Below are positions 22,578-56,374 of a stretch of 64,000 nt of DNA, piece by piece. The translations under genes were made by a program, and so were the position numbers. The stretch lies in NCBI GenBank assembly GCA_019828565.1, contig JAHDYR010000067.1, positions 526,244-590,243 on the forward strand, read 5' to 3'. Within the stretch, counting starts at the first letter, position 1, and every line of letters starts with the position of its first letter. Source of the DNA: Carpediemonas membranifera BICM (taxonomy: Eukaryota > Protista > Fornicata). The notes beneath the pieces are model-generated. The model was given only the letters and a program-made list of their open reading frames with translations, was not told the DNA's origin and made no database searches.

Positions 22578-23101
22578 GGCAACTGGAATGGCCGGTTGGG
22601 ACTCGGGCACGATGATGGGATGACTGGCTTCGTTGACCTGCCCTTCTGGGTCGACCGGATCGTGGCCTCGGTAGATTCTTTCATAGTTCCTGACCTTTTT
22701 TTAACGTCTTCCTCAATGGCCGCCAGCTTCTCTTCGCTGGTCGAGTTCCCATCCATATCGCCCAGTCGGGCCTGCTGCCTGGTTTCAGCGAACGCGACAA
22801 GTGCCTCACACCCACCCCGCTCCGGTTCCCAGAGAGGGTCAAGGGGTTCTGGGGTGACTATGATCGGATGGTCTGGGTGACCGAGGGTGTCACCCACTAT
22901 TACGAGGATGAGAATCCAACTATGGTTCCAATTGAGGCGACAGCGTTTAATGTTGAAGACCCCCTCTGCTTCCGCGACTCCACCGGCCAGTGGTTCAAGG
23001 TGGTGGGTGAGGCAGATGGGGTGGCTGAGCTGGTCGAGTCCGAGGTGGCCGAATCGTGGGAAGACATCATTCCCGTCGATGTCGACCCGTATGATTCATA
23101 A
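22578..23101 (+). pseudogene. RCC1-like family copy C, 5'-truncated fragment
   Basis: Begins mid-gene at GNWNGRLGLGHDDGMTGFVDLPFWVDR; frameshift in a T7 run at ~22696-22702; 3' end retained. Confidence 0.8.
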
Positions 23102-23139
23102 ATGAAGTCAACCCCACTCCAAGTCTCTCAACCATTTAC

Positions 23140-24107
23140 CCAGGGCCAGGATGCCCAGGGCCCTCGGGGTCTATAGCAACAGCAACGGCTTCACCCACAT
23201 CGCCAGGACGCCCAAGGGTCTGTGGGGCTGGGGCACTAACGGACGTAGCCAGCTTGGGTTCAGGTCAGCATTTGATCAATTTGTCGACCCGACCCGCCTC
23301 AACTTCCCCTCCTGCCCCAACATCGCCGAGCTCGAGGCCAGCCTGCCCCCCTGGGAGAAGCACGGGATGGTGACTGGTGTATCGATAATGAGCGGTCAGA
23401 CGTTCATCCTCACCCCAGCCGACACTGTCATGGCTGGATATGAGGCAAGATGGTTTACCGGCCGTGTCGAGCGGGAGAACAGACACCGCTTCCACCCAGT
23501 CGCTGTGCCATCTGGCTTTGTCCCAGATCACATCATGCATGTGGTAAGTTTATTTACCGCGACTGTCATCCTCTCCATGGGCGATCGGCAGGTGATCAGC
23601 GGGGGCAACGAATGTGGCCAGCTGGGGCTCGGGCACGATGATGAGATGTCTGGCTTCGTCGATCTGCCCTTTGGGGTCGACCGGATCATCACTTCTGCAG
23701 ATGAATTCACCGTCTTCCTCGGTGGCCGCCAGCTGCTCTTCGCTGGCAAAGTTCCCATCCATATCGCCAACTCGGGTCTGCTGCCTGGAAAACGCAGGGA
23801 CTACAAGTGCCTCACACCCACCCCGCTCCGGTTCCCAGAGAGGGTCAAGGGGTTCTGGGGTGACTATGATCGGATGGTCTGGGTGACCGAGGGTGTCACC
23901 CACTATTACGATGATGAGAATCCAACTATGGTTCCAATTGAGGCGACAGCGGTCAACAAATGCCCCCTCCGCTTCTGCGACTCAACCGGCCAGTGGTTCA
24001 AGGTGGTGGGCGAGTCAGATGGGGTGGCTGGGCTGGTCGAGTGCGAGGCGCCCAGAAGGCCGAGAGACATCCTTCCCGTCGATTTCGACCCAAGCCCTCA
24101 ATCATAA
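23140..24107 (+). pseudogene. RCC1-like family copy D, 5'-truncated (318-aa ORF from internal Met 23151)
   Basis: Homology starts abruptly at CAGGGCCAGGATGCCC, ~40 bp after copy C, and ends at TCATAAAC. Confidence 0.8.
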
Positions 24108-25084
24108 ACGTTCTGAAGCTACAGTGAGCTCCTTGCATGTCTCAGGCAGGACGCTGTCCTCGCATGACCAGAGAAGGTTGAGCGACCAAGGAGATGCTGC
24201 AGCCCAGGGCAGACTGTCGGCCAGAGGCCCCGGGCGGTGTCAGTCGCGCGAAACCGGCCGCGCACTTTTGCAGCTTTTTTCACGCAAAAAAGTCAGAGGG
24301 CCGAAGCGCCGCGAACTGAGCGTCTTGCTCGTTCTCATGCTTCGGCGCTCGCTAATGCTTCTGCCTTCAGCCCCTGCATGGGCTGCGCGGCGAGGCACTT
24401 AGCGAAACGCACGTGAACTCCACGGCTGCGAATGCCTTAACGCATCGGGGCTACTCAGACACACGGTATACGCCATCTTTCAAACAACATCAACACGACG
24501 TCGGAAGCCCGTGCCAGGGCGCGCGAGCGCTCGGGAAGGTCTGAGTTCGACAGTGAGCTGCGAGAGGCAGTCGGCACGAAAGCGCCGCTGCAGGCACTAG
24601 AAAGCACCGCCGCTTGCTCGTTGGCAGATGAGGCCCCGGCCGATGCTTAGAGCTCGCGGCGCTGGAAGCCTGCAGAAGTATCTATCAGTCAAATGCGCGG
24701 GGCTGCTGGGCTCTCCCAGTAGAAACACAATTCAGACTACTCTCCGACGTCATCGCTAACCAACATCATCGCACCTCTAAATGCCGCCTGCCGTTGTTGC
24801 CCAGGAGAATGGGTCGCGCGAGAGCACACGCGAGGCCAGACACCGCTGCTTCATGCCAGACCACAAACTCAGCGGAGCTGAGCCTCAAGTCGCCGCAGAT
24901 GAGGGCAGTTCATCAGAGAGACACTCTCTTCGCCAAGTCGGCCCGAACAGATAAATCAGTTTATAAGTCTACTCTCACATATATACAACCGCCACCGCCT
25001 CAAAACTCAACCATCACAAGGAAATCACACGTGACCACCGACCAACCGAATCTTTATCCAGAGATCACCAAATTGACCCAACTC

Positions 25085-26818: not shown

Positions 26819-27259
26819 GTGCGAGCGACGATTCACCTTTTGGTCAACACCAGTCAAAGTCGATTACAGCCGACTTGAGCTGGGCATGGCCTGCTAAGAG
26901 CGTAGTAGGAGTAGCAGTGTAGATGTTGACCCCGGCCTAGATATGCCAGGGGTCCATGACTGGTTATCGTGAAGTCACTTCGGGTTGAGTGTAGCAAGAC
27001 ATGCAAGAGGGCGCAAAGGCTGCGGGCGGTCGGAAGGTGAACGGTATCATCACGTTACTAAACCTCACATGCCAGTGCCGCATAGATGTGGAAGGACAGT
27101 CATCTTGGGTGAACCGGTCGGGTTATCACTATAGAGTATCATAATGTGCTCTTGTATGGCTTCTTGAGTGATTGTTTGTTGTCGCGCGAGTTATATACGG
27201 TCTATGTATCATGTATATGCTCGGCAACTCTCGCCTGCCAGTCTGTACCCCGCCAGAAG

Positions 27260-28024
27260 ATGCCGCTTGAAGCCAGCTATAAGCCTGAACGTTATGCAAA
27301 GGCTTTTAGTCTTGGTCCCTATCTTATTTCCGACGAGCCCTCAGAATGGAGCCGTTTTCGAGGCGCCGATCCATTTTCTCAACACAGCAGGCGCCGTCCC
27401 CCAAGATGCCATCGTTGCACTGCCGTAACAGATCCAATATGCATGCTATCACTCTCAATTCTTCCCGAGGACATCGCCAACTCTCTCCGCCAGCTCGTCT
27501 CGCCAGACGTCAACCCTGACGAGCCGCTCTTCTTCAGCTTCACGGCCTGTCTCCACTGTGCCCAGAACGACTCATCCTGGGCAGTATGGGAAAGCCTCCA
27601 GCCCGCCAGTAACTTCATCAGAGTCGAGCCGTCGAGTCGAGTTGTCACAGCAGTCACCCTCCCAATCCGATCATTTCCAATCTCATCAGTGTTTCATATA
27701 CCCAAGAACCGCCCCTTCCGCTCCCTGGCAGACTCATCATCACCCAGCCTGGCCCCAGACTCGTCCAACCCCGCCCCGCCGAGAGAGTCAGAGCCTGCCG
27801 TGTCTTCAGGCATGTCGTTCTCAGTCATCCATATCAGCGAGCCCCTGCCCCCGTGTCCGTTGTGCCGTACACAGATGAACCAGTGTGTGCTCAGGGTTGC
27901 CCGGACCTCCATGCTGCATTTATCTGTCCTCCCGGAGGGAAGAATGACCCTGGTGAAGTGCCCACATCATGCGGCTTTCGGGATGATTGTTGAGAAGATA
28001 GGCGGTGTCGAGGACTTCTTTTGA
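27260..28024 (+). CDS. Hypothetical CxxC protein, possibly PDCD2/YwqG-like fold
   Basis: Two repeats of PxCxxC...hydrophobic...Cxx(C/H): PRCHRC...TACLHC and PPCPLC...VKCPHH. Likely start MPLEASYKP. Confidence 0.5.
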   Translation: MPLEASYKPERYAKAFSLGPYLISDEPSEWSRFRGADPFSQHSRRRPPRCHRCTAVTDPICMLSLSILPEDIANSLRQLVSPDVNPDEPLFFSFTACLHCAQNDSSWAVWESLQPASNFIRVEPSSRVVTAVTLPIRSFPISSVFHIPKNRPFRSLADSSSPSLAPDSSNPAPPRESEPAVSSGMSFSVIHISEPLPPCPLCRTQMNQCVLRVARTSMLHLSVLPEGRMTLVKCPHHAAFGMIVEKIGGVEDFF

Positions 28025-28315
28025 GGGTGAGAGTGAGCTGGAAGTTTTACCGTGGGCTTGCTGGTGGACGGGAAGGGCGAATGAGGCGGTTATATTGGTG
28101 CTGGGTGACAATAATTGCCCAGTAGTCCGTTCTTGCTTGTTGATAAATTCAGACAAAGCATGCAAACCGTCAGCCTTTGAATGAACAACCCGGTCGACCC
28201 TGAGAGAGAGCTGAAACTGCCACTCAACCTCACCCATTGAGATGGCTTGGGGACTCCCCGCTGCTCGTGACACTAAACTGCGCAATAGCGCCACCATCCC
28301 CAGTGAGAGAGAAGC

Positions 28316-33255: not shown

Positions 33256-33861
33256 AATTGATCGGATCACTTTTCTATGTGGCACGCGCATTGCGATAAA
33301 TTTCTCGACTCAGCATTTTCTTCGTTGAGAATCATGCATTCATGTTTCGGGCTGTATTACTGGAATCTACCAAGAACAATCAATCATACCTTGCTTCAAC
33401 GATATAGGTGTTTGCTCACTCGCGATGGAACAAACTAAACTACTCGATCGTGCTTGACTCCATGGCGGGGTGGTCGGCAGACGCGGTGGGGTATATCAGC
33501 CAGCTTGTGGGCAAGTGGTCCGTGGAGGAGATTGTCTTCGGGTCGGAGTCGTGAGTGGGCCGGGCGGCTCGTTTATATGAAGGCTGGACGATGGCTAGGG
33601 TAAATAGCAGGCCTGGTGTTCTTTTATTAGTCTCCTTCGCCATTCTTCCAGGGTCTGGGCGTCTTGGGCCAACCCTTCCACGGGCCTCGTTCTTGGAGTT
33701 GTCGTCTCAACATAGTGGGATTGCCCTTTCGATCGAGCGAGATGGCTGCTGAGTCAGCTACTGCGATGGCCATGCCTCACATCCCTACACCACAGCTGGC
33801 GTCGACGGTCGGCGAGTCGGCAGTCAGAATTTGGGCACCACCGAGCTGAGCGCTGAAACCA

Positions 33862-35478
33862 ATGAGCAGCGCTAGTTCCTCGCCATCTGCCATAAGAGAT
33901 GCGCTGATCACCGCATATCGCGCCTCGCTTGTTGTGACGGCCTCCATCTCCGGGGACATCCCATCCTTGATCCAGTGCGCCTACTCCAGGCACTTCGACG
34001 GGCAGATGCCCTCGATCCACAACGACAAGGGCACTTCTACACCAACCAGCGCCCCTTCTCTCGAATCCCTCCTCGCCACGTTCTCCAAGCTCCCCCCTCT
34101 CAAACCAACCGCGCAAGCCCTCCTCGACCGCGCCCGCTCGATCCTCACCAGCGGCCCCCCGCTGTCCATGAACGTCGAGCTCGCGGATGGCGAGGAGCTC
34201 CCGGTCGCCATGCACACGCTGAACCAGGGCGCGGTGTGGGCGTGTCTGGTGGGTGGCGGGGCCAACCCCGACCTCGAGGACAGGGTGCTGAAGGAGGCTC
34301 GAGAGAAGGAGCCAGATGATATTGAGATGCACGACAAGATCCGCAACGCTCTCGCCCCCGAGGCCAAGTGCCTCTGGTTCCTCTGCCGCAAGTTCTTCTT
34401 CACGTTTAATGTCGCAGAGAAGGACGGCGAGTGCTGTCAGTTCACTGGACGCTACAATGGCTACCACCATCGCATGTACATGGGCCGCCTCTTCCTGCTC
34501 GACACTTACTATCACACCGCCCTCACCAGGGCCAGGATGCCCAGGGCCCTCGAGGTCTACAGCAACTGGTTCACCCACATCGCCAGGACACCCAAGGGTC
34601 TGTGGGGCTGGCGGCAGAACGGGTTTGGCCAGCTGGGGTTCAAGTCGTCTAAGGTCGACCCGACCCGCCTTACCTTCCCCGCCTGCGCCGAGGTCGCTGA
34701 GCTCGAGGCCAGCCTGCCCCCCTGGGAGAAGCACGGGATGGTGACTGGTGTATCGATAATGAGCGGTCAGACGTTCATCCTCACCCCAGCCGACACTGTC
34801 ATGGCTGGATATGAGGCAAGATCGTTTACCGGCCGTGTCGAGCGGGAGAACAGACCCCTCTTCCACCCAGTCGCTGTGCCATCTGGCTTTGTCCCAGATC
34901 ACATCATGCATGTGGTAAGTTTATTTACCGCGACTGTCATCCTCTCCATGGGCGATCGGCAGGTGATCAGCGGGGGCAACGAATGTGGCCAGCTGGGGCT
35001 CGGGCACGATGATGAGATGTCTGGCTTCGTCGATCTGCCCTTTGGGGTCGACCGGATCATCACTTCTGCAGATGAATTCACCGTCTTCCTCGGTGGCCGC
35101 CAGCTGCTCTTCGCTGGCAAAGTTCCCATCCATATCGCCCAGTCGGGCCTGCTGCCTGGAAAACGCAGGGACTACAAGTGCCTCACACCCACCCCGCTCC
35201 GGTTCCCAGAGAGGGTCAAGGGGTTCTGGGGTGACTATGATCGGATGGTCTGGGTGACCGAGGGTGTCACCCACTATTACGATGATGAGAATCGTACTAT
35301 GGTTCCAATTGAGGCGACAGCGTTCAACAAATGCCCCCTCCGCTTCCGTGACTCAACTGGCCAGTGGTTCAAGGTGGTGGGCGAGTCAGATGGGGTGGCT
35401 GAGCTGGTCGAGTGCGAGGCGCCCAAAAGGCGGACAGAGATCATCCCGGTCGACGTTGACCCAACCCCTCAATCATAA
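33862..35478 (+). CDS. RCC1-like family copy E, intact (538 aa)
   Basis: Uninterrupted ORF from MSSASSS to PQS; RCC1 motifs LWGWRQNGFGQLG and GGNECGQLGLGH. Confidence 0.85.
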   Translation: MSSASSSPSAIRDALITAYRASLVVTASISGDIPSLIQCAYSRHFDGQMPSIHNDKGTSTPTSAPSLESLLATFSKLPPLKPTAQALLDRARSILTSGPPLSMNVELADGEELPVAMHTLNQGAVWACLVGGGANPDLEDRVLKEAREKEPDDIEMHDKIRNALAPEAKCLWFLCRKFFFTFNVAEKDGECCQFTGRYNGYHHRMYMGRLFLLDTYYHTALTRARMPRALEVYSNWFTHIARTPKGLWGWRQNGFGQLGFKSSKVDPTRLTFPACAEVAELEASLPPWEKHGMVTGVSIMSGQTFILTPADTVMAGYEARSFTGRVERENRPLFHPVAVPSGFVPDHIMHVVSLFTATVILSMGDRQVISGGNECGQLGLGHDDEMSGFVDLPFGVDRIITSADEFTVFLGGRQLLFAGKVPIHIAQSGLLPGKRRDYKCLTPTPLRFPERVKGFWGDYDRMVWVTEGVTHYYDDENRTMVPIEATAFNKCPLRFRDSTGQWFKVVGESDGVAELVECEAPKRRTEIIPVDVDPTPQS

Positions 35479-35654
35479 ACATGCTGCTGCACGACTGCGC
35501 CTTCTCAGCTTGGGAGAACGATAGGGTGACGACTCCTGCTTGTTCCCAGTGGACTTCTTAACAAGTCAGCATCCGTTCGTCCATCCCCATTGTGTCCGGG
35601 TCACAACTGTACATCTTTACCGGCTAATCAACATAAACCATAAACTACGGGCCT

Positions 35655-38793: not shown

Positions 38794-40361
38794 CTACTTT
38801 ATGTTGATTAGAGGGTCAACGTCGACGGGAATGATCTCTGTCCGCCATATGGGTACCTCGCATTCGACCAGCCCAGCCACCCCATCTGACTCGCCCACCA
38901 CCTTGAACCACTGGCCGGTTGAGTCGCAGAAGCGGAGGGGGCATTTGTTGACCGCTGTCGCCTCAATTGGAACCATAGTTGGATTCTCATCATCGTAATA
39001 GTGGGTGACACCCTCGGTCACCCAGACCATCCGATCATAGTCACCCCAGAACCCCTTGACCCTCTCTGGGAACCGGAGCGGGGTGGGTGTGAGGCACTTG
39101 TAGTCCCTGCGTTTTCCAGGCAGCAGACCCGACTGGGCGATATGACGGGTTACCTTGCCAGCGAAGAGCAGCTGGCGGCCACCGAGGAAGACGTTGAATT
39201 CATCTGCAGAAGTGATGATCCGGTCGACCCCAAAGGGCAGATCGACGAAGCCAGACATCTCATCATCGTGCCCGAGCCCCAGCTGGCCACATTCGTTGCC
39301 CCCGCTGATCATCTGCCGATCGCCCATGGAGAGGATGACAGTCGCGGTAAATAAACTTACCACATGCACGATGTGATCTGGGACAAAGCCAGATGGCACA
39401 GCGACTGGGTGGAAGCGGTGTCTGTTCTCCCGCTCGACACGGCCGGTAAACAATCTTGCCTCATATCCAGCCATGACAGTGCCGACTGGGGTGAGGATGA
39501 ACGTCCGATCACAAATCAGCGACACATCAGTCACCATCCTGTGCTTCTCCCAGAGGGGCAGGCTGGCCTCGAGCTCGGCGACCTCGGCGCAGGCGGGGAA
39601 GGTAAGGCGGGTCGGGTCGACCTTAGACGACTCGAACCCCAGCTGGCCATGACCGCTATCCCCCCAGCCCCACAGACCCTTGGGCGTCCTGGCGATGTGG
39701 GTGAGGTCGTCGCTGTAGACCTCGAGGGCCCTGGGCATCCTGGCCCTGGTGAAGGCGGTGTGATAGTCCGAGTTAAACATGAAGAGGCGGCCCATGTACA
39801 TGCGGTGGTGGTAGCCATTGTAGCGTCCAGTGAACTGACAGCACTCGCCGTCCTTCTCTGCCACATTCAGCGTGAAGAAGAACTTGCGGCAGAGGAACCA
39901 GAGGCACTTGGCCTCGGGGGCGAGAGCGTTGCGGATCTTGTCGTGCTCGAGGTCGGGGTTGGCCCCGCCACCCACCAGACACGCCCACACCGCGCCCTGG
40001 TTCAGCGTGTGCAGGGCGACCGGGAGCTCCTGCCCCGCCACCAGCTCGACGTTCATGGACAGCGGGGGGCCGCTGGTGAGGATCGAGCGGGCGCGGTCGA
40101 GGAGGGCTTGCGCGGTTGGTTTGAGAGGGGGCAGCTTGGAGAGCGCGGCGAGGAGGGATTCGAGAGAAGGGGCACTCGCTGGTGCAGAAGTGCTCTTGTC
40201 GTTGTGGATCGAGGGCATCTGCCCGTCGAAGTGCCTGGAGTAGGCGCACTGGATCAAGGATGGGATGTACCAGAGATGGAGGCCGTCACAACAAGCGAGG
40301 CGCGATATGCGGTGATCAGCGCATCTCTGATGGCAGATGGCGAGGAACTAGCGCTGCTCAT
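38794..40361 (-). pseudogene. RCC1-like family copy F (early frameshift; variable cassette deleted in frame)
   Basis: ATG at 40361; same 1-nt deletion TCTGGTACATCC as copy A (~40268); reads NPDLE-HDKIR where other copies have ~17 extra residues. Confidence 0.8.
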
Positions 40362-40810
40362 TGGTTTCAGCGCTCAGTTCGGTGGTGCCCAAATTCTGAC
40401 TGACGACTCGCCGACCGCCGACGCCAGCTGCGGTGTCGCGAGTTGAGGCATGAACCTCGGAGCAGCCGACTCAGCTGGCGCACATGCCTGATCGAGAGTG
40501 CATTATAGGCCCCACACGAACACGATTGCATCAACAGGCCGTCTATATCGGCCGTTTAGACAGCTTTGTGCCGATTCCCCGACCAAGATGTGAGACTGGC
40601 AATCTTCTGACCATCGTGATGTCGGCTTGAGGAATAGTCGACTGAACACTTTGTCGCTCCACTGATTGGATGGAGAGCGAGGCCAGCCAGACAGTGTATA
40701 CTCACGTGTCATGAGAGCCAGCTCTACCATGACCCTGCCTGACCCCTGGATCGCGTGACAATGCGTTAGCAGCATCGCTGCCGGCATTTTCATTTATTCA
40801 CATAACTCGA

Positions 40811-44347: not shown

Positions 44348-44552
44348 TGCGATTAATAAATATGGATAATAATTTATTACTGCCCATGGAGGATTGTTTA
44401 TGGCACTATAGGGTCGTTGGGCTGCTGTTCGTCGCGTGCTATCACTCAAGACGCAGCCACGCCATTGGCTAATGCTTCCAAGCTGGAAGCCGCTCGGGGC
44501 TCTTGTCATTCGTCTCACACGGGTCGCCAGTCTGTTTGCGATTCAAAAAAGT

Positions 44553-46186
44553 TTATGATTGAGGGCTTGGGTCGAAATCGACGGGAATGATGTCTTCCCG
44601 CCTTATGGGTACCTCGCACTCGACCAGCTCAGCCACCCCATCTGACTCACCCACCACCTTGAACCACTGGCCAGTTGAGTCACGGAAGCGGAGGGGGTCT
44701 TCAACATTAAACGCTGTCGCCTCAATTGGAACCATAGTACGATTCTCATCCTCGTAATAGTGGGTGACACCCTCAGTGACCCAGACCATCCGATCATAGT
44801 CACCCCAGAACCCCTTGACCCTCTCTGGGAACCGGAGCGGGGTGGGTGTGAGGCACTTGTAGTCCCTGCGTTTTCCAGGCAGCAGACCCGACTGGGCGAT
44901 ATGACGGGTTACCTTGCCAGCGAAGAGCAGCTGGCGGCCACCGAGGAAGACGGTGAATTCATCTGCAGAAGTGATGATCCGGTCGACCCCAAAGGGCAGA
45001 TCGACGAAGCCAGACATCTCATCATCGTGCCCGAGCCCCAGCTGGCCACATTCGTTGCCCCCGCTGATCATCTGCCGATCGCCCATGGAGAGGATGACAG
45101 TCGCGGTAAATAAACTTACCACATGCATGATGTGATCTGGGACAAAGCCAGATGGCACAGCGACTGGGTGGAAGCGGTGTCTGTTCTCCCGCTCGACACG
45201 GCCGGTAAACGATCTTGCCTCATATCCAGCCATGACAGTGTCGGCTGGGGTGAGGATGAACGTCTGACCGCTCATTATCGATACACCAGTCACCATCCCG
45301 TGCTTCTCCCAGGGGGGCAGGCTGGCCTCGAGCTCGGCGATGTTGGGGCAGGAGGGGAAGTTGAGGCGGGTCGGGTCGACAAATTGATCAAATGCTGACC
45401 TGAACCCAAGCTGGCTACGTCCGTTAGTGCCCCAGCCCCACAGACCCTTGGGCGTCCTGGCGATGTGGGTGAAGCCGTTGCTGTTGCTATAGACCTCGAG
45501 GGCCCTGGGCATCCTGGCCCTGGTGAAGGCGGTGTGATAGTCCGAGTTAAACATGAAGAGGCGGCCCATGTACATGCGGTGGTGGTAGCCATTGTAGCGT
45601 CCAGTGAACTGATAGAACTCGCCGTCCTTCTCGGCGACGTTCAGCGTGAAGAAGAACTTGCGGCAGAGGAACCAGAGCACTTGGCCTCGGGGGTGAGAGC
45701 GTTGCGGATCTTGTCGTGTGTCTCCCGATCACGAGGCCACCTCATTAGATTATCATCCAGCACCCTGTCCTCGAGGTCGGGGTTGGCCCCGCCGCCCACC
45801 AGACACGCCCACACCGCGCCCTGGTTCAGCGTGTGCATGGCGACCGGGAGCTCCTCGCCATCCGCGAGCTCGACGTTCATGGACAGCGGGGGGCCGCTGG
45901 TGAGGATCGAGCGGGCGCGGTCGAGGAGGGCTTGCGCGGTTGGTTTGAGAGGGGGGAGCTTGGAGAACGTGGCGAGGAGGGATTCGAGAGAAGGGGCGCT
46001 GGTTGGTGTAGAAGTGCCCTTGTCGTTGTGGATCGAGGGCATCTGCCCGTCGAAGTGCCTGGAGTAGGCGCACTGGATCAAGGATGGGATGTCCCCGGAG
46101 ATGGAGGCCGTCACAACAAGCGAGGCGCGATATGCGGTGATCAGCGCATCTCTTATGGCAGATGGCGAGGAACTAGCGCTGCTCAT
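44553..46186 (-). pseudogene. RCC1-like family copy G (1-nt frameshift ~45677)
   Basis: Split into ORFs 45641-46186 and 44553-45680; GCCAAGTGCTCTGG versus intact GCCAAGTGCCTCTGG. Confidence 0.8.
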
Positions 46187-46674
46187 TGGTTTCAGCGCTC
46201 AGTTCGGTGGTGCCCAAATTCTGACTGCCGACTCGCCGACCGCCGACGCCAGCTGGGAGGTCGGGAGATGAGACGTGCAGCCTCACTGGAGATGAGGCCT
46301 GACCACACCCGCGACACACTCCAACAGTGTCCCAGCTAACCCCACCTGGGTAGACCCACACGGCTCGAGAAACGCCTCACTCAGTCGACCACACAAGCGG
46401 ACTGACAGTAGCATGGCTGGGCTGCAGGAGGTAGAATGAGGAGCTATGGCCTGTGTTCCGCCTACTCGAGGTGGTCGGGGATCAGGATCCTCTCGAGGCT
46501 AGTCCGCCCTCGTGTGAGAAGCGTGCTTCTGCTGATTGGACCAGATGAGAAATGGCCTGGACGAAGCGGAGCAGTGACCAGTCGTTGCCAGTCGACTTTC
46601 GACGCCAGTCTTGATGAAGGAACAATAATCGTGAAAATGCCCTGTCACGACAAGAACCTTGTACCTTCGACACA

Positions 46675-48099
46675 ATGAACAATCCCTGGTATCCAGTCCT
46701 TGGAATACCAGCAGAATTCTTTCTCAAAGAGAGAGACGAGGCTGTTTCCATGCTGACGAGGACTCTGGGCATCTCTGTCGTCGATCTAGGCGAGGTACAC
46801 TTCTTTGCAGCGCTCAAGCAAGCGCATGCAGTGCCAAATAGTTCATCTGAGCTCACGATGACCAATGTTATGTGCATCTTGAAAGACGGCGAAGAGCGCC
46901 ACCACGAGCCGCTCAATACGCTAACAGGCGCCGCCAGCATCCAAATATCGTGTTCAAACCTCCATGCTGGCTTTCATTCCCTCTGCAAGTGGGAGATGGC
47001 GCGCTTTGGTCGACCCAAGGCAACGCTTGCCCTGGAGGCACCCTCGTCGCACAGGCAGAACTCCACCCTAGGCACGTTGACTGGCGACATAGAAGTGCTG
47101 AACACATGCATGGAACATGAGGAGATGATGTTCAAAGAGGCACCAACATGCCGCTTCTTCCACGGCGTTTCAGTCCTGTTCGCCAATGCCCCACAGTCAG
47201 CAGACGGCGAGATCCTCAGTGCATTCTTCACAGAACATCTCAAGTGTCGTGTGGCCAGTTGCTTCACCATGCCCGACCTGGCCGGGGCTGGGATCCTCAT
47301 CTTGCCACTCGCCGAGGACCTCGAGGCGTTGCTCGGCAACCTGCCACCTTTTCAAGGACGCAAGCTTTTTCTGATGCCTCTCGAGCACTTACGCGCCTTC
47401 CCGCCCTCTCTCCTCGTCAACGGAGTCCCCAAGGAGACCATACTCTCCTGTCCCGCCCTTCGCACTGAGCGGCAGGTCGCTGACTTCAAAGCCGAGGGTC
47501 TTGGTCTTGTTATCATGTATGACTCGGCCGAGACTGTCGAGTCAATCGAGCAAGACATGTTCTTCTCGCCCGAGCAGTTTACGGATGGGCAGCACTCACT
47601 CGCTGTCGATTTCTACAAGGGCACTCCTGAGGGCATGGTTGTCGCCCAAGACGTCGAATCCGTCCAGGACCCAGCCCCTGAACCAGAACTAGAGCCTGAG
47701 CCCGAGCCCGAGAGGACATACAGCTCACTCGCCCTCGACACCAGAGACGTCTACCTCCTCGACCGCGACTCGCTCCTGTTCACGACCCGCACCGAGTTCC
47801 CCCTCTACCGGGCCGACTCAAACACCAGGCCGACCCCCATTGGCGTGATGGCCCACACACTCGGCTGTATCCAGGCCGATGAGTACGTCACAGCCAAGGG
47901 GCCAGAGCGTCTCATGCCGTCGAGGATGCGGAACTATCAGTATAGCATGGCCGACATCGACGAGGACGGCATGCTTGCGCACTTTCCCGAGGGCCACCTC
48001 GAAGGGTCAGTCCGCGTCCAGCAGCAGGACTGCCTCGTGGTAGTTTCCAAGCTCAGTAATAAGCACCCTGGGGAGTCCCGTACAGCCAAAAGTTTATGA
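46675..48099 (+). pseudogene. PARG-like (DUF2263/TIGR02452-type) gene copy 1, truncated before the catalytic loop
   Basis: Nearly identical to copy 3 up to KH(P/H)GE; the stop is supplied by the antisense 3' end of RCC1 copy H; lacks 12 bp (LSIG) present in copies 2 and 3. Confidence 0.7.
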
Positions 48100-49728
48100 T
48101 TGAGGGGTTGGGTCGAAATCAACCGGGATGATGTCTTCCCGCCTTATGGGTACCTCGCACTCGACCAGCTCAGCCACCCCATCTGACTCACCCACCACCT
48201 TGAACCACTGGCCGGTGGAGTCGCGGAAGCAGAGGGGGTCTTCAACATTAAACGCTGTCGCCTCAATTGGAACCATAGTACGATTCTCATCCTCGTAATA
48301 GTGGGTGACACCCTCGGTCACCCAGACCATCCGATCATAGTCACCCCAGAACCCCTTGACCCTCTCTGGGAACCGGAGCGGGGTGGGTGTGAGGCACTTG
48401 TAGTCCCTGCGTTTTCCAGGCAGCAGACCCGACTGGGCGATATGACGGGTTACCTTGCCAGCGAAGAGCAGCTGGCGGCCACCGAGGAAGACGTTGAATT
48501 CATCTGCAGAAGTGATGATCCGGTCGACCCCAAAGGGCAGATCGACGAAGCCAGACATCTCATCATCGTGCCCGAGCCCCAGCTGGCCACATTCGTTGCC
48601 CCCGCTGATCATCTGCCGATCGCCCATGGAGAGGATGACAGTCGCGGTAAATAAACTTACCACATGCATGATGTGATCTGGGACAAAGCCAGATGGCACA
48701 GCGACTGGGTGGAAGCGGTGTCTGTTCTCCCGCTCGACACGGCCGGTAAACGATCTTGCCTCATATCCAGCCATGACAGTGTCGGCTGGGGTGAGGATGA
48801 ACGTCTGACCGCTCATTATCGATACACCAGTCACCATCCCGTGCTTCTCCCAGGGGGGCAGGCTGGCCTCGAGCTCGGCGATGTTGGGGCAGGAGGGGAA
48901 GTTGAGGCGGGTCGGGTCGACAAATTGATCAAATGCTGACCTGAACCCAAGCTGGCTACGTCCGTTAGTGCCCCAGCCCCACAGACCCTTGGGCGTCCTG
49001 GCGATGTGGGTGAAGCCGTTGCTGTTGCTATAGACCTCGAGGGCCCTGGGCATCCTGGCCCTGGTGAAGGCGGTGTGATAGTCCGAGTTAAACATGAAGA
49101 GGCGGCCCATGTATATGCGATGGTGGTAGCCATTGTAGCGTCCAGTGAACTGACAGCACTCGCCGTCCTTCTCTGCGACATTAAACGTGAAGAAGAACTT
49201 GCGGCAGAGGAACCAGAGGCACTTGGCCTCGGGGGCGAGAGCCTTGCGGATCTTGTCGTAAATCGTGGTACCACGTGACCCCAGCACTTGGGCCTCTTGC
49301 AGCACCCTGTCCTCGAGGTATGGGTTGGCCCCGCCACCCACCAGACACGCCCACACCGCGCCCTGGTTCAGCGTGTGCATGGCGACCGGGAGCTCCTCGC
49401 CATCCGCGAGCTCAACGTTCATTGACAGCGGGGGGCCGCTGGTGAGGATCGAGCGGGCGCGGTCGAGGAGGGCTTGCGCGGTTGGTTTGAGAGGGGGGAG
49501 CTTGGAGAACGTGGCGAGGAGGGATTCGAGAGAAGGGGCGCTGGTTGGTGTAGAAGTGCCCTTGTCGTTGTGGATCGAGGGCATCTGCCCGTCGAAGTGC
49601 CTGGAGTAGGCGCACTGGATCAAGGATGGGATGTCCCCGGAGATGGAGGCCGTCACAACAAGCGAGGCGCGATATGCGGTGATCAGCGCATCTCTTATGG
49701 CAGATGGCGAGGAACTAGCGCTGCTCAT
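48094..49728 (-). CDS. RCC1-like family copy H, intact (544 aa)
   Basis: Uninterrupted ORF with WGWGTNGRSQLG and GGNECGQLGLGH. Confidence 0.85.
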   Translation of the reverse strand: MSSASSSPSAIRDALITAYRASLVVTASISGDIPSLIQCAYSRHFDGQMPSIHNDKGTSTPTSAPSLESLLATFSKLPPLKPTAQALLDRARSILTSGPPLSMNVELADGEELPVAMHTLNQGAVWACLVGGGANPYLEDRVLQEAQVLGSRGTTIYDKIRKALAPEAKCLWFLCRKFFFTFNVAEKDGECCQFTGRYNGYHHRIYMGRLFMFNSDYHTAFTRARMPRALEVYSNSNGFTHIARTPKGLWGWGTNGRSQLGFRSAFDQFVDPTRLNFPSCPNIAELEASLPPWEKHGMVTGVSIMSGQTFILTPADTVMAGYEARSFTGRVERENRHRFHPVAVPSGFVPDHIMHVVSLFTATVILSMGDRQMISGGNECGQLGLGHDDEMSGFVDLPFGVDRIITSADEFNVFLGGRQLLFAGKVTRHIAQSGLLPGKRRDYKCLTPTPLRFPERVKGFWGDYDRMVWVTEGVTHYYEDENRTMVPIEATAFNVEDPLCFRDSTGQWFKVVGESDGVAELVECEVPIRREDIIPVDFDPTPQS

Positions 49729-50216
49729 TGGTTTCAGCGCTCAGCTCGGTGGTGCCCAAATTCTGACTGCCGACTCGCCGACCGCCGACGCCAGCTGGGA
49801 GGTCGGGAGATGAGACGTGCAGCCTCACTGGAGATGAGGCCTGACCACACCCGCGACACACTCCAACAGTGTCCCAGCTAACCCCACCTGGGTAGACCCA
49901 CACGGCTCGAGAAACGCCTCACTCAGTCGACCACACAAGCGGACTGACAGTAGCATGGCTGGGCTGCAGGAGGTAGAATGAGGAGCTATGGCCTGTGTTC
50001 CGCCTACTCGAGGTGGTCGGGGATCAGGATCCTCTCGAGGCTAGTCCGCCCTCGTGTGAGAAGCGTGCTTCTGCTGATTGGACCAGATGAGAAATGGCCT
50101 GGACGAAGCGGAGCAGTGACCAGTCGTTGCCAGTCGACTTTCGACGCCAGTCTTGATGAAGGAACAATAATCGTGAAAATGCCCTGTCACGACAAGAACC
50201 TTGTACCTTCGACACA

Positions 50217-51653
50217 ATGAACAATCCCTGGTATCCAGTCCTTGGAATACCAGCAGAATTCTTTCTCAAAGAGAGAGACGAGGCTGTTTCCATGCTGACG
50301 AGGACTCTGGGCATCTCTGTCGTCGATCTAGGCGAGGTACACTTCTTTGCAGCGCTCAAGCAAGCGCATGCAGTGCCAAATAGTTCATCTGAGCTCACGA
50401 TGACCAATGTTATGTGCATCTTGAAAGACGGCGAAGAGCGCCACCACCTGAGCATCGGCGAGCCGCTCAATACGCTAACAGGCGCCGCCAGCATCCAAAT
50501 ATCGTGTTCAAACCTCCATGCTGGCTTTCATTCCCTCTGCAAGTGGGAGATGGCGCGCTTTGGTCGACCCAAGGCAACGCTTGCCCTGGAGGCACCCTCG
50601 TCGCACAGGCAGAACTCCACCCTAGGCACGTTGACTGGCGACATAGAAGTGCTGAACACATGCATGGAACATGAGGAGATGATGTTCAAAGAGGCACCAA
50701 CATGCCGCTTCTTCCACGGCGTTTCAGTCCTGTTCGCCAATGCCCCACAGTCAGCAGACGGCGAGATCCTCAGTGCATTCTTCACAGAACATCTCAAGTG
50801 TCGTGTGGCCAGTTGCTTCACCATGCCCGACCTGGCCGGGGCTGGGATCCTCATCTTGCCACTCGCCGAGGACCTCGAGGCGTTGCTCGGCAACCTGCCA
50901 CCTTTTCAAGGACGCAAGCTTTTTCTGATGCCTCTCGAGCACTTACGCGCCTTCCCGCCCTCTCTCCTCGTCAACGGAGTCCCCAAGGAGACCATACTCT
51001 CCTGTCCCGCCCTTCGCACTGAGCGGCAGGTCGCTGACTTCAAAGCCGAGGGTCTTGGTCTTGTTATCATGTATGACTCGGCCGAGACTGTCGAGTCAAT
51101 CGAGCAAGACATGTTCTTCTCGCCCGAGCAGTTTACGGATGGGCAGCACTCACTCGCTGTCGATTTCTACAAGGGCACTCCTGAGGGCATGGTTGTCGCC
51201 CAAGACGTCGAATCCGTCCAGGACCCAGCCCCTGAACCAGAACTAGAGCCTGAGCCCGAGCCCGAGAGGACATACAGCTCACTCGCCCTCGACACCAGAG
51301 ACGTCTACCTCCTCGACCGCGACTCGCTCCTGTTCACGACCCGCACCGAGTTCCCCCTCTACCGGGCCGACTCAAACACCAGGCCGACCCCCATTGGCGT
51401 GATGGCCCACACACTCGGCTGTATCCAGGCCGATGAGTACGTCACAGCCAAGGGGCCAGAGCGTCTCATGCCGTCGAGGATGCGGAACTATCAGTATAGC
51501 ATGGCCGACATCGACGAGGACGGCATGCTTGCGCACTTTCCCGAGGGCCACCTCGAAGGGTCAGTCCGCGTCCAGCAGCAGGACTGCCTCGTGGTAGTTT
51601 CCAAGCTCAGTAATAAGCACCCTGGGGAGTCCCGTACAGCCAAAAGTTTATGA
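50217..51653 (+). pseudogene. PARG-like gene copy 2, truncated before the catalytic loop
   Basis: 478-aa ORF with the same junction as copy 1. Confidence 0.7.
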
Positions 51654-53302
51654 TTGAGGGGTTGGGTCGAAATCAACCGGGATGATGTCTTCCCGCCTTA
51701 TGGGTACCTCGCACTCGACCAGCTCAGCCACCCCATCTGACTCACCCACCACCTTGAACCACTGGCCGGTGGAGTCGCGGAATAATTGGATGCAATTGTC
51801 ATTGATCAATGTTCTATGGCATGCCATAGCCTCAAAGGGCACACAGATCTGGTCGTCGTGTTCGTTGTCGCACAAATGAGTGCGGCCCTCGGTCACCCAG
51901 ACCATCCGATCATAGTCACCCCAGAACCCCTTGACCCTCTCTGGGAACCGGAGCGGGGTGGGTGTGAGGCACTTGTAGTCCCTGCGTTTTCCAGGCAGCA
52001 GACCCGACTGGGCGATATGACGGGTTACCTTGCCAGCGAAGAGCAGCTGGCGGCCACCGAGGAAGACGTTGAATTCATCTGCAGAAGTGATGATCCGGTC
52101 GACCCCAAAGGGCAGATCGACGAAGCCAGACATCTCATCATCGTGCCCGAGCCCCAGCTGGCCACATTCGTTGCCCCCGCTGATCATCTGCCGATCGCCC
52201 ATGGAGAGGATGACAGTCGCGGTAAATAAACTTACCACATGCATGATGTGATCTGGGACAAAGCCAGATGGCACAGCGACTGGGTGGAAGCGGTGTCTGT
52301 TCTCCCGCTCGACACGGCCGGTAAACGATCTTGCCTCATATCCAGCCATGACAGTGTCGGCTGGGGTGAGGATGAACGTCTGACCGCTCATTATCGATAC
52401 ACCAGTCACCATCCCGTGCTTCTCCCAGGGGGCAGGCTGGCCTCGAGCTCGGCGATGTTGGGGCAGGAGGGGAAGTTGAGGCGGGTCGGGTCGACAAATT
52501 GATCAAATGCTGACCTGAACCCAAGCTGGCTACGTCCGTTAGTGCCCCAGCCCCACAGACCCTTGGGCGTCCTGGCGATGTGGGTGAAGCCGTTGCTGTT
52601 GCTATAGACCTCGAGGGCCCTGGGCATCCTGGCCCTGGTGAAGGCGGTGTGATAGTCCGAGTTAAACATGAAGAGGCGGCCCATGTACATGCGATGGTGG
52701 TAGCCATTGTAGCGTCCAGTGAACTGACAGCACTCGCCGTCCTTCTCTGCGACATTAAACGTGAAGAAGAACTTGCGGCAGAGGAACCAGAGGCACTTGG
52801 CCTCGGGGGCGAGAGCCTTGCGGATCTTGTCGTGTGTCTCGGTCCTGCGTGGCTCCTCCTCTTGAGCCTCCTTCAGCACATTGTCCTCGAGGTATGGGTT
52901 GGCCCCGCCACCCATGAGACACGCCCACACCGCGCCCTGGTTCAGCGTGTGCATGGCGACCGGGAGCTCCTCGCCATCCGCGAGCTCAACGTTCATTGAC
53001 AGCGGGGGGCCGCTGGTGAGGATCGAGCGGGCGCGGTCGAGGAGGGCTTGCGCGGTTGGTTTGAGAGGGGGGAGCTTGGAGAACGTGGCGAGGAGGGATT
53101 CGAGAGAAGGGGCGCTGGTTGGTGTAGAAGTGCCCTTGTCGTTGTGGATCGAGGGCATCTGCCCGTCGAAGTGCCTGGAGTAGGCGCACTGGATCAAGGA
53201 TGGGATGTCCCCGGAGATGGAGGCCGTCACAACAAGCGAGGCGCGATATGCGGTGATCAGCGCATCTCTTATGGCAGATGGCGAGGAACTAGCGCTGCTC
53301 AT
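51648..53302 (-). pseudogene. RCC1-like family copy I (frameshift in G-run ~52428, possibly a sequencing error)
   Basis: ORFs 52406-53302 and 51648-52412; G5 instead of G6 in CCAGGGGGGCAGG. Confidence 0.75.
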
Positions 53303-53790
53303 TGGTTTCAGCGCTCAGCTCGGTGGTGCCCAAATTCTGACTGCCGACTCGCCGACCGCCGACGCCAGCTGGGAGGTCGGGAGATGAGACGTGCAGCCTC
53401 ACTGGAGATGAGGCCTGACCACACCCGCGACACACTCCAACAGTGTCCCAGCTAACCCCACCTGGGTAGACCCACACGGCTCGAGAAACGCCTCACTCAG
53501 TCGACCACACAAGCGGACTGACAGTAGCATGGCTGGGCTGCAGGAGGTAGAATGAGGAGCTATGGCCTGTGTTCCGCCTACTCGAGGTGGTCGGGGATCA
53601 GGATCCTCTCGAGGCTAGTCCGCCCTCGTGTGAGAAGCGTGCTTCTGCTGATTGGACCAGATGAGAAATGGCCTGGACGAAGCGGAGCAGTGACCAGTCG
53701 TTGCCAGTCGACTTTCGACGCCAGTCTTGATGAAGGAACAATAATCGTGAAAATGCCCTGTCACGACAAGAACCTTGTACCTTCGACACA

Positions 53791-55290
53791 ATGAACAATC
53801 CCTGGTATCCAGTCCTTGGAATACCAGCAGAATTCTTTCTCAAAGAGAGAGACGAGGCTGTTTCCATGCTGACGAGGACTCTGGGCATCTCTGTCGTCGA
53901 TCTAGGCGAGGTACACTTCTTTGCAGCGCTCAAGCAAGCGCATGCAGTGCCAAATAGTTCATCTGAGCTCACGATGACCAATGTTATGTGCATCTTGAAA
54001 GACGGCGAAGAGCGCCACCACCTGAGCATCGGCGAGCCGCTCAATACGCTAACAGGCGCCGCCAGCATCCAAATATCGTGTTCAAACCTCCATGCTGGCT
54101 TTCATTCCCTCTGCAGAGTGGGAGATGGCGCGCTTTGGTCGACCCAAGGCAACGCTTGCCCTGGAGGCACCCTCGTCGCACAGGCAGAACTCCACCCTAG
54201 GCACGTTGACTGGCGACATAGAAGTGCTGAACACATGCATGGAACATGAGGAGATGATGTTCAAAGAGGCACCAACATGCCGCTTCTTCCACGGCGTTTC
54301 AGTCCTGTTCGCCAATGCCCCACAGTCAGCAGACGGCGAGATCCTCAGTGCATTCTTCACAGAACATCTCAAGTGTCGTGTGGCCAGTTGCTTCACCATG
54401 CCCGACCTGGCCGGGGCTGGGATCCTCATCTGCCACTCGCCGAGGACCTCGAGGCGTTGCTCGGCAACCTGCCACCTTTCCAAGGACGCAAGCTTTTTCT
54501 GATGCCTCTCGAGCACTTACGCGCCTTCCCGCCCTCTCTCCTCGTCAACGGAGTCCCCAAGGAGACCATACTCTCCTGTCCCGCCCTTCGCACTGAGCGG
54601 CAGGTCGCTGACTTCAAAGCCGAGGGTCTTGGTCTTGTTATCATGTATGACTCGGCCGAGACTGTCGAGTCAATCGAGCAAGACATGTTCTTCTCGCCCG
54701 AGCAGTTTACGGATGGGCAGCACTCACTCGCTGTCGATTTCTACAAGGGCACTCCTGAGGGCATGGTTGTCGCCCAAGACGTCGAATCCGTCCAGGACCC
54801 AGCCCCTGAACCAGAACTAGAGCCTGAGCCCGAGCCCGAGAGGACATACAGCTCACTCGCCCTCGACACCAGAGACGTCTACCTCCTCGACCGCGACTCG
54901 CTCCTGTTCACGACCCGCACCGAGTTCCCCCTCTACCGGGCCGACTCAAACACCAGGCCGACCCCCATTGGCGTGATGGCCCACACACTCGGCTGTATCC
55001 AGGCCGATGAGTACGTCACAGCCAAGGGGCCAGAGCGTCTCATGCCGTCGAGGATGCGGAACTATCAGTATAGCATGGCCGACATCGACGAGGACGGCAT
55101 GCTTGCGCACTTTCCCGAGGGCCACCTCGAAGGGTCAGTCCGCGTCCAGCAGCAGGACTGCCTCGTGGTAGTTTCCAAGCTCAGTAATAAGCACCATGGG
55201 GAGTGTATCGCGTGCCTCAACATGGCTAATGAGTACCGCGTCGGCGGGGGCTACAACACGGGCGCCCGGGCACAAGAGGAGGAGCTCATC
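53791..55290 (+). pseudogene. PARG-like gene copy 3, retaining the catalytic-loop signature, fused in frame to RCC1 fragment J
   Basis: HTLGCIQADEYVTAKG, VRVQQQDCLVVVSKL, CLNMANEYRVGGGYNTGARAQEEEL (GGG-X7-QEE). +1 (~54116) and -1 (~54431) indels relative to copies 1 and 2. Confidence 0.78.
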
Positions 55291-55689
55291 AACGTCTTCC
55301 TCGGTGGCCGCCAGCTTCTCTTCGCTGGTCGAGTTCCCCTCCATATTGCCCAGTCGGGTCTGCTGCCTGGAAAACGCAGGGACTACAAGTGCCTCACACC
55401 CACCCCGCTCCGGTTCCCAGAGAGGGTTAAGCGGTTCTGGGTCGATGATGGTCAGATCGTCTGGGTGACCGAGGGTGTCACCCACTATTACGAGGATGAG
55501 AATCGTACTATAGTCCCCATTGAGGCGATAGCGTTCAACAAATGCCCCCTCCGCTTCTGCGACTCCACCGGCCAGTGGTTCAAGGTGGTGGGTGAGTCAG
55601 ATGGGGTGGCTGAGCTGGTCGAGTGCGAGGTACCCATAAGGCGGGAAGACATCATTCCCGTCGATTTCGACCAAAGCCCTCAATCATAA
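55289..55689 (+). pseudogene. RCC1-like family copy J, 3' fragment
   Basis: Starts at (TC)AACGTCTTCCTCGGT (NVFLGGRQLLFAG) and ends PQS-TAAAC. Confidence 0.85.
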
Positions 55690-56142
55690 ACAAAAGTGCG
55701 GGCAAAATTGGTGCCTCTCGAGTTTCACATGAGCTCACGGGCACCCTGGAGTGCCGAGGCGCGGGCGAGACCCCAGCGGGACCGGGTCGCCGTGCTAAGA
55801 GGTTGAATCTGGTGTGAGTTTCGGATATGAATCGAGGTGATTCGATCCGGGAGAATCGATTGCGCAATCGACTGAAAATGGAGTCAGACCAAGAGAAATG
55901 GCGGAAGAGACCGCCGGACAGATAAGAGATAAATGTCCAACCCTCCTTGGGTAACAGTGTATATGTTGTGTGGCCAGCAAAATCTGGCCAATCATTTCAG
56001 TCAACGTCACCCGAGTCCACCGTGTCACATTCAAAGGCACGCATGTAGAGAGGGCCAACAGTGCATTTAATCGACACACTGGACAACGATATTGCACAGA
56101 TCGTTAAACTTCACGAAGCGCGGCAGTGAGTGCTCCTTGCAT

Positions 56143-56374
56143 GTCGATGATGGTCTGGGTGACCGAGGGCCGCAGCCATCTGTCTGACGACTACCGCCAG
56201 TGTACAGCCAGTGTCCCCATTGAGGCTACGGCATATGGCACGACAAGCAATGTCCCCTGTTTCCGCGACTCAGCCGGCCAGTGGTTTGAGGCGGCTGATG
56301 TGTCAGATGTCACGTGTGGGGTACCCGGTTGGTCGATGGAGATCTCACCAGTCGCCGTCGACCCAGCGTTTTAG
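56143..56374 (+). pseudogene. RCC1-like family copy K, short 3' fragment with a copy-A-type tail
   Basis: VWVTEGRSHLSDDYRQCTASVPIEATAYGTTSNVPC...GWSMEISPV is nearly identical to the 3' end of copy A, ~49 kb away. Confidence 0.85.

What the first reader, a model, noticed from the sequence alone, without database searches (positions are those of the whole stretch)
22578..56374. Polarised truncation: every partial RCC1 copy keeps its 3' end and loses the 5' end
Seen: fragments C (~520 bp), D (~970 bp), J (~400 bp) and K (~230 bp) start at four different internal points and all run to the stop codon. There is no 3'-truncated copy. Copies occur in both orientations between housekeeping genes. Known: variable 5' truncation with a fixed 3' end is typical of target-primed reverse transcription. 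Against: no poly(A) tails, target-site duplications or reverse transcriptase are visible here. Inference: the family spreads by a 3'-anchored copying mechanism, either retroposition in trans or RNA/DNA-templated break repair.
Basis: partly seen in the sequence, partly recalled or inferred. Interest (0 to 1): 0.75.

Follow-up and report, generated by a model that had tools for sequence, protein, structure and literature searches.

The report
Tail-first copying of a gene family
In a free-living protist, all four broken copies of a large RCC1-like gene family in this region keep the gene's tail end, likely because new copies are written backwards from the end of the gene's RNA into nearby DNA breaks, although ordinary deletions filtered by selection could leave the same pattern.

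Summary
The window, in all likelihood Carpediemonas membranifera, holds 12 copies of a lineage-specific RCC1-like gene family. Four (C, D, J, K) lack the 5' part; none is a 5' or internal fragment. Shared sequence stops 0-11 nt after a TAAA word that also follows 15 of 16 host stop codons, a likely poly(A) signal. A fifth, very young breakpoint (tandem copies H/I, confirmed by an independent contig) lies 16 nt past it. Against ordinary LINE retroposition: no poly(A) tail in 12 of 12 copies, only chance-level target-site duplications, a target deletion at J, and strongly local spread. Gene conversion is so frequent that sharp homology ends need not be insertion junctions. Two to five independent events give P 0.25-0.03, and the genome-wide test could not be run. 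Best reading (0.45): tailless, RNA-templated insertion at nearby breaks, sealed by microhomology joining. Close rival (0.37): DNA duplication plus deletions, with selection keeping poly(A) signals. The scan had not noted this family before, and no paper on it was found.

The parts
6741..8362 (-). Copy A, long; frameshift and internal deletion; homology starts 65 nt upstream of the ATG
17943..19610 (-). Copy B, intact 555-aa ORF; first 220 nt diverged from the other copies (old, unconverted end)
22536..22577 (+). 13-nt direct repeat (22536-22548, 22565-22577) whose second copy ends at the 5' junction of C; likely a templated insertion
   Evidence: such a repeat in 3 of about 20,000 random windows
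22578..23101 (+). Fragment C, 5'-truncated, frameshifted; 50 nt from a likely start codon of the divergent PHD-finger gene
23140..24107 (+). Fragment D, 5'-truncated, begins 38 nt after the stop of C
24121..24141 (+). 3' flank of D that recurs just before K (20 of 22 aligned, 14 nt exact)
33748..35478 (+). Copy E, intact 538-aa ORF from 33862; homology starts 114 nt upstream; 7-nt word at both ends (weak duplication candidate)
38794..40475 (-). Copy F, long; frameshift, 57-nt internal deletion; a second family-type 3' end 20 nt behind the first
44553..46272 (-). Copy G, long, frameshifted; first unit of the tandem array; B-type 10-nt end repeated just downstream
46675..48099 (+). 5' part of the PARG-domain gene, cut off at the 3' end of H (unit 1)
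48078..48093 (-). Young junction: the 16 nt after TAAA of H (5 shared with G, 11 of unknown origin) that join H to the PARG gene; repeated at I
48094..49814 (-). Copy H, intact 544-aa ORF from 49728
50217..51653 (+). 5' part of the PARG-domain gene, unit 2
51648..53388 (-). Copy I, long, frameshifted in a C run; an 80-nt foreign patch near the 3' end (conversion tract)
53791..55288 (+). PARG-domain gene, unit 3; 85 nt longer than units 1-2; catalytic domain cut at the J junction, remainder not found
55289..55689 (+). Fragment J, 5'-truncated, fused in frame to the PARG domain; supplies stop codon and TAAA
56106..56145 (+). 40-nt piece resembling a family 3' end plus the flank of D; possibly an ultra-short fifth fragment
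   Evidence: contig loose end at 56105; inference
56149..56374 (+). Fragment K, 5'-truncated, 94% like the 3' end of A
58984..60618 (+). Copy L, long; 58-nt internal deletion with 3-nt microhomology

Best explanation
The four partial copies and one very young duplication junction all keep the 3' end of an RCC1-like gene, and they likely arise when a broken DNA end near an expressed copy primes DNA synthesis on that gene's RNA at its 3' end, with the unfinished 5' side likely sealed by microhomology joining. Shown: the polarity in this window, the end at the TAAA word, the lack of tails, the junction scars, the local spread and the patchwork between copies. Inferred: that TAAA is the poly(A) signal; that the template is RNA; that priming uses short pairing at or just after the signal and not the poly(A) tail; that a LINE reverse transcriptase or a repair polymerase does the copying. 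Early stops would give C, D, J and K. Synthesis that reaches the 5' region would give long copies with staggered 5' ends. A new strand that re-invades its neighbouring donor would give the G-H-I tandem array. Afterwards, frequent local gene conversion keeps the gene bodies alike.
For: 4 of 4 fragments are 3' pieces. 10 of 12 copies have TAAA at or beside the stop, the other two a one-letter variant. Shared sequence ends 0-11 nt after it, whereas 5' homology starts are staggered from -65 to -114. TAAA follows 15 of 16 host stops within 50 nt, against 7.4% of random windows and 3 of 16 upstream windows. In other metamonads cleavage lies 8-20 nt after the signal (PMC11529991, passages). The H/I junction is 16 nt after TAAA; it is very young (1 substitution in about 3.6 kb of flanking unique DNA) and is present in an independent contig. 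Scars fit break repair: a 13-nt templated repeat at C, 11 nt of filler at H/I, and loss of the PARG remainder at J. Human class 2 templated insertions show this set of features (PMC5110952, passages). The species lacks NHEJ, keeps alternative end joining, and is proposed to repair breaks on transcript or cDNA templates (10.1101/2021.03.14.435266, section 12 and passages). No two separately placed copies share flanks beyond these limits, apart from the D/K piece.
Against: Only 2-5 independent events (P 0.25-0.03). Nothing directly shows an RNA step: no poly(A), no intron loss, no mapped transcript end. Conversion is far faster than point mutation (49 and 48 substitutions in the family part of the tandem units, 0 and 1 in the unique part), so sharp ends of old copies say little about insertion. 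J is explained by one deletion. Internal deletions with 1-3 nt microhomology exist in A, F and L. Of 39 relatives lacking the C-terminus, 20 were not explained by a frameshift and could be true 3' truncations. The D-flank piece before K reaches about 35 nt past TAAA, farther than a mature transcript would be expected to go. No reverse transcriptase is in the window, and LINEs in this genome rest on unchecked notes.
Confidence: 0.45

Rival explanations
1. No RNA step. Copies spread locally as DNA (unequal crossing-over, templated break repair), old flanks decayed, and gene conversion plus selection kept only promoter, coding sequence and poly(A) signal alike. Microhomology deletions then shorten copies. 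Those that remove the 5' part are tolerated because the poly(A) signal survives and can serve the upstream gene; those that remove the 3' part cause read-through and are lost.
For: Conversion patchwork in every copy and its high rate. Nearest relative on the same contig for 66 of 144 proteins against 13.3 in shuffles (largest 28 of 2000), with identity falling from 83.7% to 55.9% with gene distance on the window's contig. One deletion explains both the missing PARG end and the missing 5' part of J, which supplies a new stop and TAAA. Internal deletions in A, F, L. B's 5' end is old and unconverted. No tails, no clear duplications.
Against: The young H/I breakpoint falls within 16 nt of the signal, although about 200 nt of spacer were available. 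3' ends are tighter than 5' ends. No pair of dispersed copies shares a long flank, despite recent activity in the region. The selective asymmetry is argued, not measured.
Confidence: 0.37
2. Classical LINE retroposition in trans: a LINE protein cuts the target and reverse-transcribes the family mRNA from its poly(A) tail; tails and duplications have since decayed, or priming was internal as in tailless retropseudogenes.
For: 5' truncation with a fixed 3' end. Junction-anchored shared words of 6-7 nt at A, C and E: 3 of 10 copies reach 6 nt, against 10 of 89 mismatched pairs. Tailless retrocopies by internal priming are known (PMC5322556, abstract and section 16). Unchecked notes report LINE families in this genome.
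Against: No A-run longer than 4 nt in the 30 nt examined after any of 12 stops, including the very young H/I junction. The duplication excess is weak and its windows were chosen after looking. Published tailless copies were defined by clear duplications. Spread is local.
Confidence: 0.1
3. Chance or assembly error: four fragments from two events fell the same way, or polishing of long reads in a repeat family made chimeric copies.
For: Two events give P 0.25. The J junction and the J-K spacer could not be checked against independent data. A one-base loss in a C run of copy I recurs as the same frameshift tail in 6 other proteins, as a homopolymer error would.
Against: The H/I junction is in an independent contig. 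Patches of up to 80 nt with large indels are not the kind of change polishing makes. The fragments carry their own patchwork and junction scars.
Confidence: 0.06
4. Rolling-circle (Helitron-like) copying with one fixed and one variable end.
For: Helitron-related enzymes are reported in the species. Local spread, and no reliable duplications.
Against: No CTAG-type end in 9 of 12 copies (CTGA in B, D, L only), no A-TC start on the other strand in 12 of 12, only weak hairpins (mostly -1 to -5 kcal/mol), and a 3' end that wanders over 11 nt. The protein has no such domain.
Confidence: 0.02

Closest known systems
Class 2 templated sequence insertions / endonuclease-independent retro-insertion (PMC5110952, passages seen)
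   Same: No poly(A), no reliable target-site duplication; target deletion, filler and short repeats at junctions; proposed RNA or cDNA patch at a double-strand break.
   Different: Human cases come from distant loci and are not tied to the transcript's 3' end. Here one gene family is copied again and again, locally, with a fixed 3' end, in a cell without classical NHEJ.
LINE-1 processed retrocopies (class 1 insertions) and tailless retropseudogenes (PMC5110952; PMC5322556, abstract and section 16)
   Same: Fixed 3' end near a poly(A) signal, variable 5' truncation, gene-sized unit without flanks.
   Different: No poly(A); duplications at about chance level; local rather than dispersed; intense conversion afterwards.
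Penelope-driven expansion of host gene families in Adineta vaga (PMC3846280, passages seen)
   Same: A host multigene family multiplied in trans in a genome with high gene conversion.
   Different: Those copies are framed by pLTR repeats and duplications; no terminal repeat is seen here.
Concerted evolution of multigene families by non-allelic gene conversion and unequal crossing-over (general knowledge, recalled)
   Same: Patchwork copies, identity falling with distance, a tandem array, many pseudogenes.
   Different: It does not by itself predict one-sided truncation or a young breakpoint at the poly(A) signal.
RCC1-like beta-propeller proteins (HERC2 RLD, UVR8, RPGR, RCC1)
   Same: Predicted C-terminal domain matches them (HERC2 RLD3 Z 15.0, rmsd 5.7, 280 aligned; UVR8 E 1e-10).
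   Different: 12-17% identity, below Pfam cut-offs, with an unassigned 190-residue helical N-terminal domain; a lineage-specific family, not RCC1 itself.

Membership tests
LINE-type processed retrocopy | Variable 5' truncation with kept 3' end | tested here: met
   4 of 4 fragments in the window; not testable genome-wide
LINE-type processed retrocopy | Poly(A) tail at the 3' junction | tested here: not met
   Longest A-run 1-4 nt in 12 of 12 copies
LINE-type processed retrocopy | Target-site duplication of 5 nt or more | tested here: inconclusive
   6-7 nt words at A, C, E; 3 of 10 copies against 10 of 89 mismatched pairs; H and I left out as tandem repeats of G's flank
LINE-type processed retrocopy | 3' end 10-30 nt after the poly(A) signal, at the transcript end | tested here: inconclusive
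   Likely signal present; shared sequence ends 0-11 nt after it, H/I junction at 16 nt; transcript end not mapped
LINE-type processed retrocopy | Loss of the parent's introns | not testable with these tools
   The intact copies B, E, H are single open frames; no intron-bearing parent is known
LINE-type processed retrocopy | A LINE reverse transcriptase in the genome | not tested
   None in the window; unchecked notes report LINE families elsewhere in the genome
Class 2 templated insertion (break patch) | No poly(A) and no duplication | tested here: met
   No tail in 12 of 12; no duplication in 7 of 10, chance-level words in 3
Class 2 templated insertion (break patch) | Deletion, microhomology or added bases at junctions | tested here: met
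   13-nt repeat at C, 11-nt filler at H/I, PARG remainder lost at J
Class 2 templated insertion (break patch) | Insert is a copy made from RNA, donor left intact | not testable with these tools
   Needs empty-site alleles and an RNA mark
Helitron / rolling-circle element | TC and CTRR termini, subterminal hairpin, exact fixed end (features recalled) | tested here: not met
Cut-and-paste DNA transposon | Terminal inverted repeats | tested here: not met
   Best end-to-end inverted match scores 5-7 in 5 long copies tested
RCC1-like domain proteins | RCC1-type beta-propeller fold | tested here: met
   Model pLDDT 91; the ten best matches by Z are RCC1-like propellers
RCC1-like domain proteins | Pfam RCC1 or WD40_RLD score above the curated cut-off | tested here: inconclusive
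   E and H below both cut-offs, B just above for RCC1 (22.6 against 21.7); 66 of 82 members hit WD40_RLD at E up to 1

The most novel reading that the evidence does not exclude
Carpediemonas multiplies a gene family by repairing breaks on nascent, cleaved but not yet polyadenylated transcripts held near their own locus. That would explain the 3' anchor, the missing tails and the local gradient at once. It would be the first genomic footprint of the transcript-templated repair proposed to replace ORC-dependent replication in this lineage.
Probability: 0.17. Interest if true: 0.85.

Novelty: new variant of a known kind. Interest (0 to 1): 0.42.

Why it matters
C. membranifera lacks ORC, Cdc6 and classical NHEJ, and RNA-templated recombination has been proposed as its substitute (10.1101/2021.03.14.435266, section 12); the passages read present this as a hypothesis. 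A family of well over a hundred copies, with many datable junctions, makes that idea testable from existing sequence: count fragment polarity and compare young junctions with mapped transcript ends. If the RNA route holds, it is a way to amplify genes locally without tails or duplications, which retrocopy screens would miss. If it fails, the locus still shows very fast local gene conversion, and a PARG-domain gene destroyed by its neighbour.

Tried and rejected
Whole-genome DNA test: no genome is held, and a metagenome scan found no relative. Protein-level polarity: 70 full, 36 N-short, 26 C-short, 13 internal of 145; rejected as a test because frameshifted long copies are annotated as pieces. 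Of the 39 lacking the C-terminus, 19 have colinear frameshift tails, 4 end within 3 residues and 16 are unexplained. Fusion proteins were not used, since gene models may join neighbours. Sequencing runs: no RNA holder listed; only contigs, so no transcript ends. Depth along copy E and the cut list of loose ends could not rank 5' against 3' junctions. Run X1 gave no cover of the J junction or the J-K spacer, which shows nothing either way. An intact PARG paralogue that would give J's empty site was not found (258-823 aa only). Unanchored duplication search: own pairs 5-7 nt, like mismatched pairs. No match of the family or of the D and J/K flanks to earlier noted windows, which include LINE pieces (near-identical matches only). 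No source for the H/I filler in the window beyond 9-11 nt chance-level matches; the first filler search stopped early and was redone. An F-box resemblance in the N-terminal domain was recalled from memory; 0 of 82 members hit an F-box model, the Atlas gave no hit of 0.9 or more, and the domain was not folded alone. For the TAAA count, 16 of the 22 ORFs were used. Four dropped ORFs proved antisense to one long gene; of the other two, one has TAAA and one does not, so 16 of 18 if they are kept. Antisense TTTA occurs in 8 of 16 windows, so part of the excess reflects AT-rich 3' regions. Literature: Carpediemonas with RCC1 gave 0 papers; searches listed none on this family. The preprint's supplements (closed) may describe repeats and bear on the LINE question.
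Full report
What the window is. It is intron-poor eukaryotic DNA with ordinary genes (TSG101-like, RACK1-like, histidine ammonia-lyase, M16 peptidase, RanBP1 domain). A search with copy H gave 131 relatives of similar length and 25 shorter ones. All 142 named rows of the 145 listed are Carpediemonas membranifera; the other 3 are the window's own. The window's proteins lie on a contig of the same length as the closest named relatives, so the species is inferred, not given. A profile search found 152 clusters at E up to 1e-30, the weakest being general RCC1-repeat proteins; 10 of 10 checked were again C. membranifera. The family is therefore large, old and lineage-specific. The predicted protein (pLDDT 91) has a helical N-terminal domain of about 190 residues and an RCC1-like propeller. 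It is not RCC1 itself and shows no transposase, reverse transcriptase or nuclease domain. dN/dS among the three intact copies is 0.58-0.64.

The observation. There are 12 copies; C, D, J and K are 3' fragments of the stated sizes, and no 5' or internal fragment exists at the sensitivity of a six-frame profile search. The fragments come in two adjacent pairs, so the count alone is weak: P 0.25 to 0.06 for two to four events.

The 3' end. Ten of 12 copies carry TAAA at or next to the stop codon; A and B have one-letter variants. Pairwise similarity ends 0-11 nt after this word. TAAA also follows 15 of 16 host stops within 50 nt, against 7.4% of random windows. I infer that it is the poly(A) signal; related metamonads use AWUAAA or WGURAA, with cleavage 8-20 nt downstream (PMC11529991, passages; Carpediemonas is not treated there). 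The 5' limits of long copies are looser, from -65 to -114. No copy has a poly(A) tail. Junction-anchored shared words of 6-7 nt occur at A, C and E, 3 of 10 copies against 10 of 89 mismatched pairs: suggestive at best, with windows chosen after looking.

The junctions. G, H and I form a tandem array whose unit includes the 5' part of a PARG-domain gene. The unique part of the units differs by 0 and 1 substitutions over about 1.8 kb each, so the duplication is very young. Its breakpoint joins the PARG gene to a point 16 nt after TAAA of H and I: 5 nt shared with G and 11 nt of filler. A 1579-nt contig of run X1 carries the same join. This is a fifth breakpoint that keeps the 3' end, and the only one known to be young. 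J is fused in frame into the PARG catalytic domain, whose Pfam match stops at the junction; the rest of that gene was not found. C is preceded by a 13-nt direct repeat ending at the junction, seen in 3 of about 20,000 random windows, which resembles a templated insertion of alternative end joining (general knowledge). F and G each have a second family-type end 15-20 nt behind the first, as if a new 3' end had been laid slightly out of register on an older copy; this is inference.

What weakens the argument. Every copy is a patchwork whose nearest relative changes every 100-300 nt. In the tandem units the family part differs by 49 and 48 substitutions where the unique part differs by 0 and 1. 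Conversion this fast means that high identity does not date the copies, and that sharp homology ends in old copies may be limits of conversion and selection. A, F and L carry internal deletions with 1-3 nt microhomology, so deletions are common, and J is most simply one deletion from the PARG gene into a full copy. Spread is local: the nearest relative is on the same contig for 66 of 144 proteins (13.3 in shuffles; one protein without a contig was left out), and identity falls with gene distance. Freely diffusing mRNA would not be expected to give this. At protein level the genome-wide polarity cannot be read: 19 of 39 C-short proteins are frameshifts and 20 stay open.

Mechanism. I put 0.45 on tailless RNA-templated insertion at nearby breaks. 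A broken end would pair with the transcript near its 3' end, copy towards the 5' end, and be sealed by microhomology joining or by re-invasion of the donor. This fits the anchor, the missing tails, the scars and the locality, and it fits a species that lacks NHEJ, keeps alternative end joining and is proposed to use transcript or cDNA templates (10.1101/2021.03.14.435266, section 12 and passages). No RNA step is shown. I put 0.37 on a DNA-only history with selection for kept poly(A) signals, 0.10 on classical LINE retroposition, 0.06 on chance or assembly error and 0.02 on rolling-circle copying, whose end motifs are absent. Earlier unchecked notes report LINE families in this genome; I used them only as a lead that a reverse transcriptase may be available.

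Comparison and novelty. It works most like class 2 templated insertions (PMC5110952, passages) and tailless retropseudogenes (PMC5322556, abstract and section 16). It fails the poly(A) test for a classical processed retrocopy and has no terminal repeats of the Penelope type (PMC3846280, passages). The feature is real and cheaply testable, but the sample is small and an ordinary explanation is nearly as good: interest 0.42.

Noticed in passing
window 24497-24751 (+): Nuclear RNase P RNA gene (Rfam RF00009, 88 bits); it explains the ORF-free kilobase after fragment D.
   Followed up: no
window 46675-55288 (+): A gene with a microbial-type PARG catalytic domain is present only as three cut-off pieces; no intact paralogue of 258-823 aa was found, so the function may be lost in this assembly.
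   Followed up: partly
window 44547-55204: In the young tandem array the family part has about 50 substitutions per unit pair and the unique part 0-1: very fast gene conversion relative to mutation.
   Followed up: yes
window-wide, 3' of host stop codons: TAAA within 50 nt of 15 of 16 host stops: likely the poly(A) signal of this species, unlike Giardia's WGURAA.
   Followed up: partly
window 24121-24141 and 56124-56145: The 3' flank of D recurs just before K, preceded by a family-like TAAAC end; unexplained.
   Followed up: partly
window 52410-52430 (-) and P0098, P0113, P0122, P0123, P0125, P0126: The same frameshift tail recurs in 6 relatives and in copy I, which lacks one base of a C run: a shared null allele or a homopolymer assembly error.
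   Followed up: partly
relatives on contigs of 905,863, 1,024,508 and 496,590 bases: Family members crowd into runs of neighbouring locus tags at the high end of the tags seen for each contig, possibly near contig or chromosome ends (inference).
   Followed up: no
window 42452-44347 (+): RanBP1-domain protein with near-perfect 72- and 84-nt tandem repeats encoding GFGGFTFGG motifs, nucleoporin-like.
   Followed up: no
window 3-5270 (-): Open frame of at least 1756 codons with what look like ankyrin repeats and a FYVE-like end, read by eye.
   Followed up: no
window 33400-33651 and 56050-56105: Contigs of run X1 that differ from the window lie on these non-coding stretches, hinting at small repeats with relatives elsewhere.
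   Followed up: no
window 19808-22897 (-): The PHD-finger gene's open frame runs on into the antisense strand of fragment C; none of three start choices is in the protein collection.
   Followed up: partly
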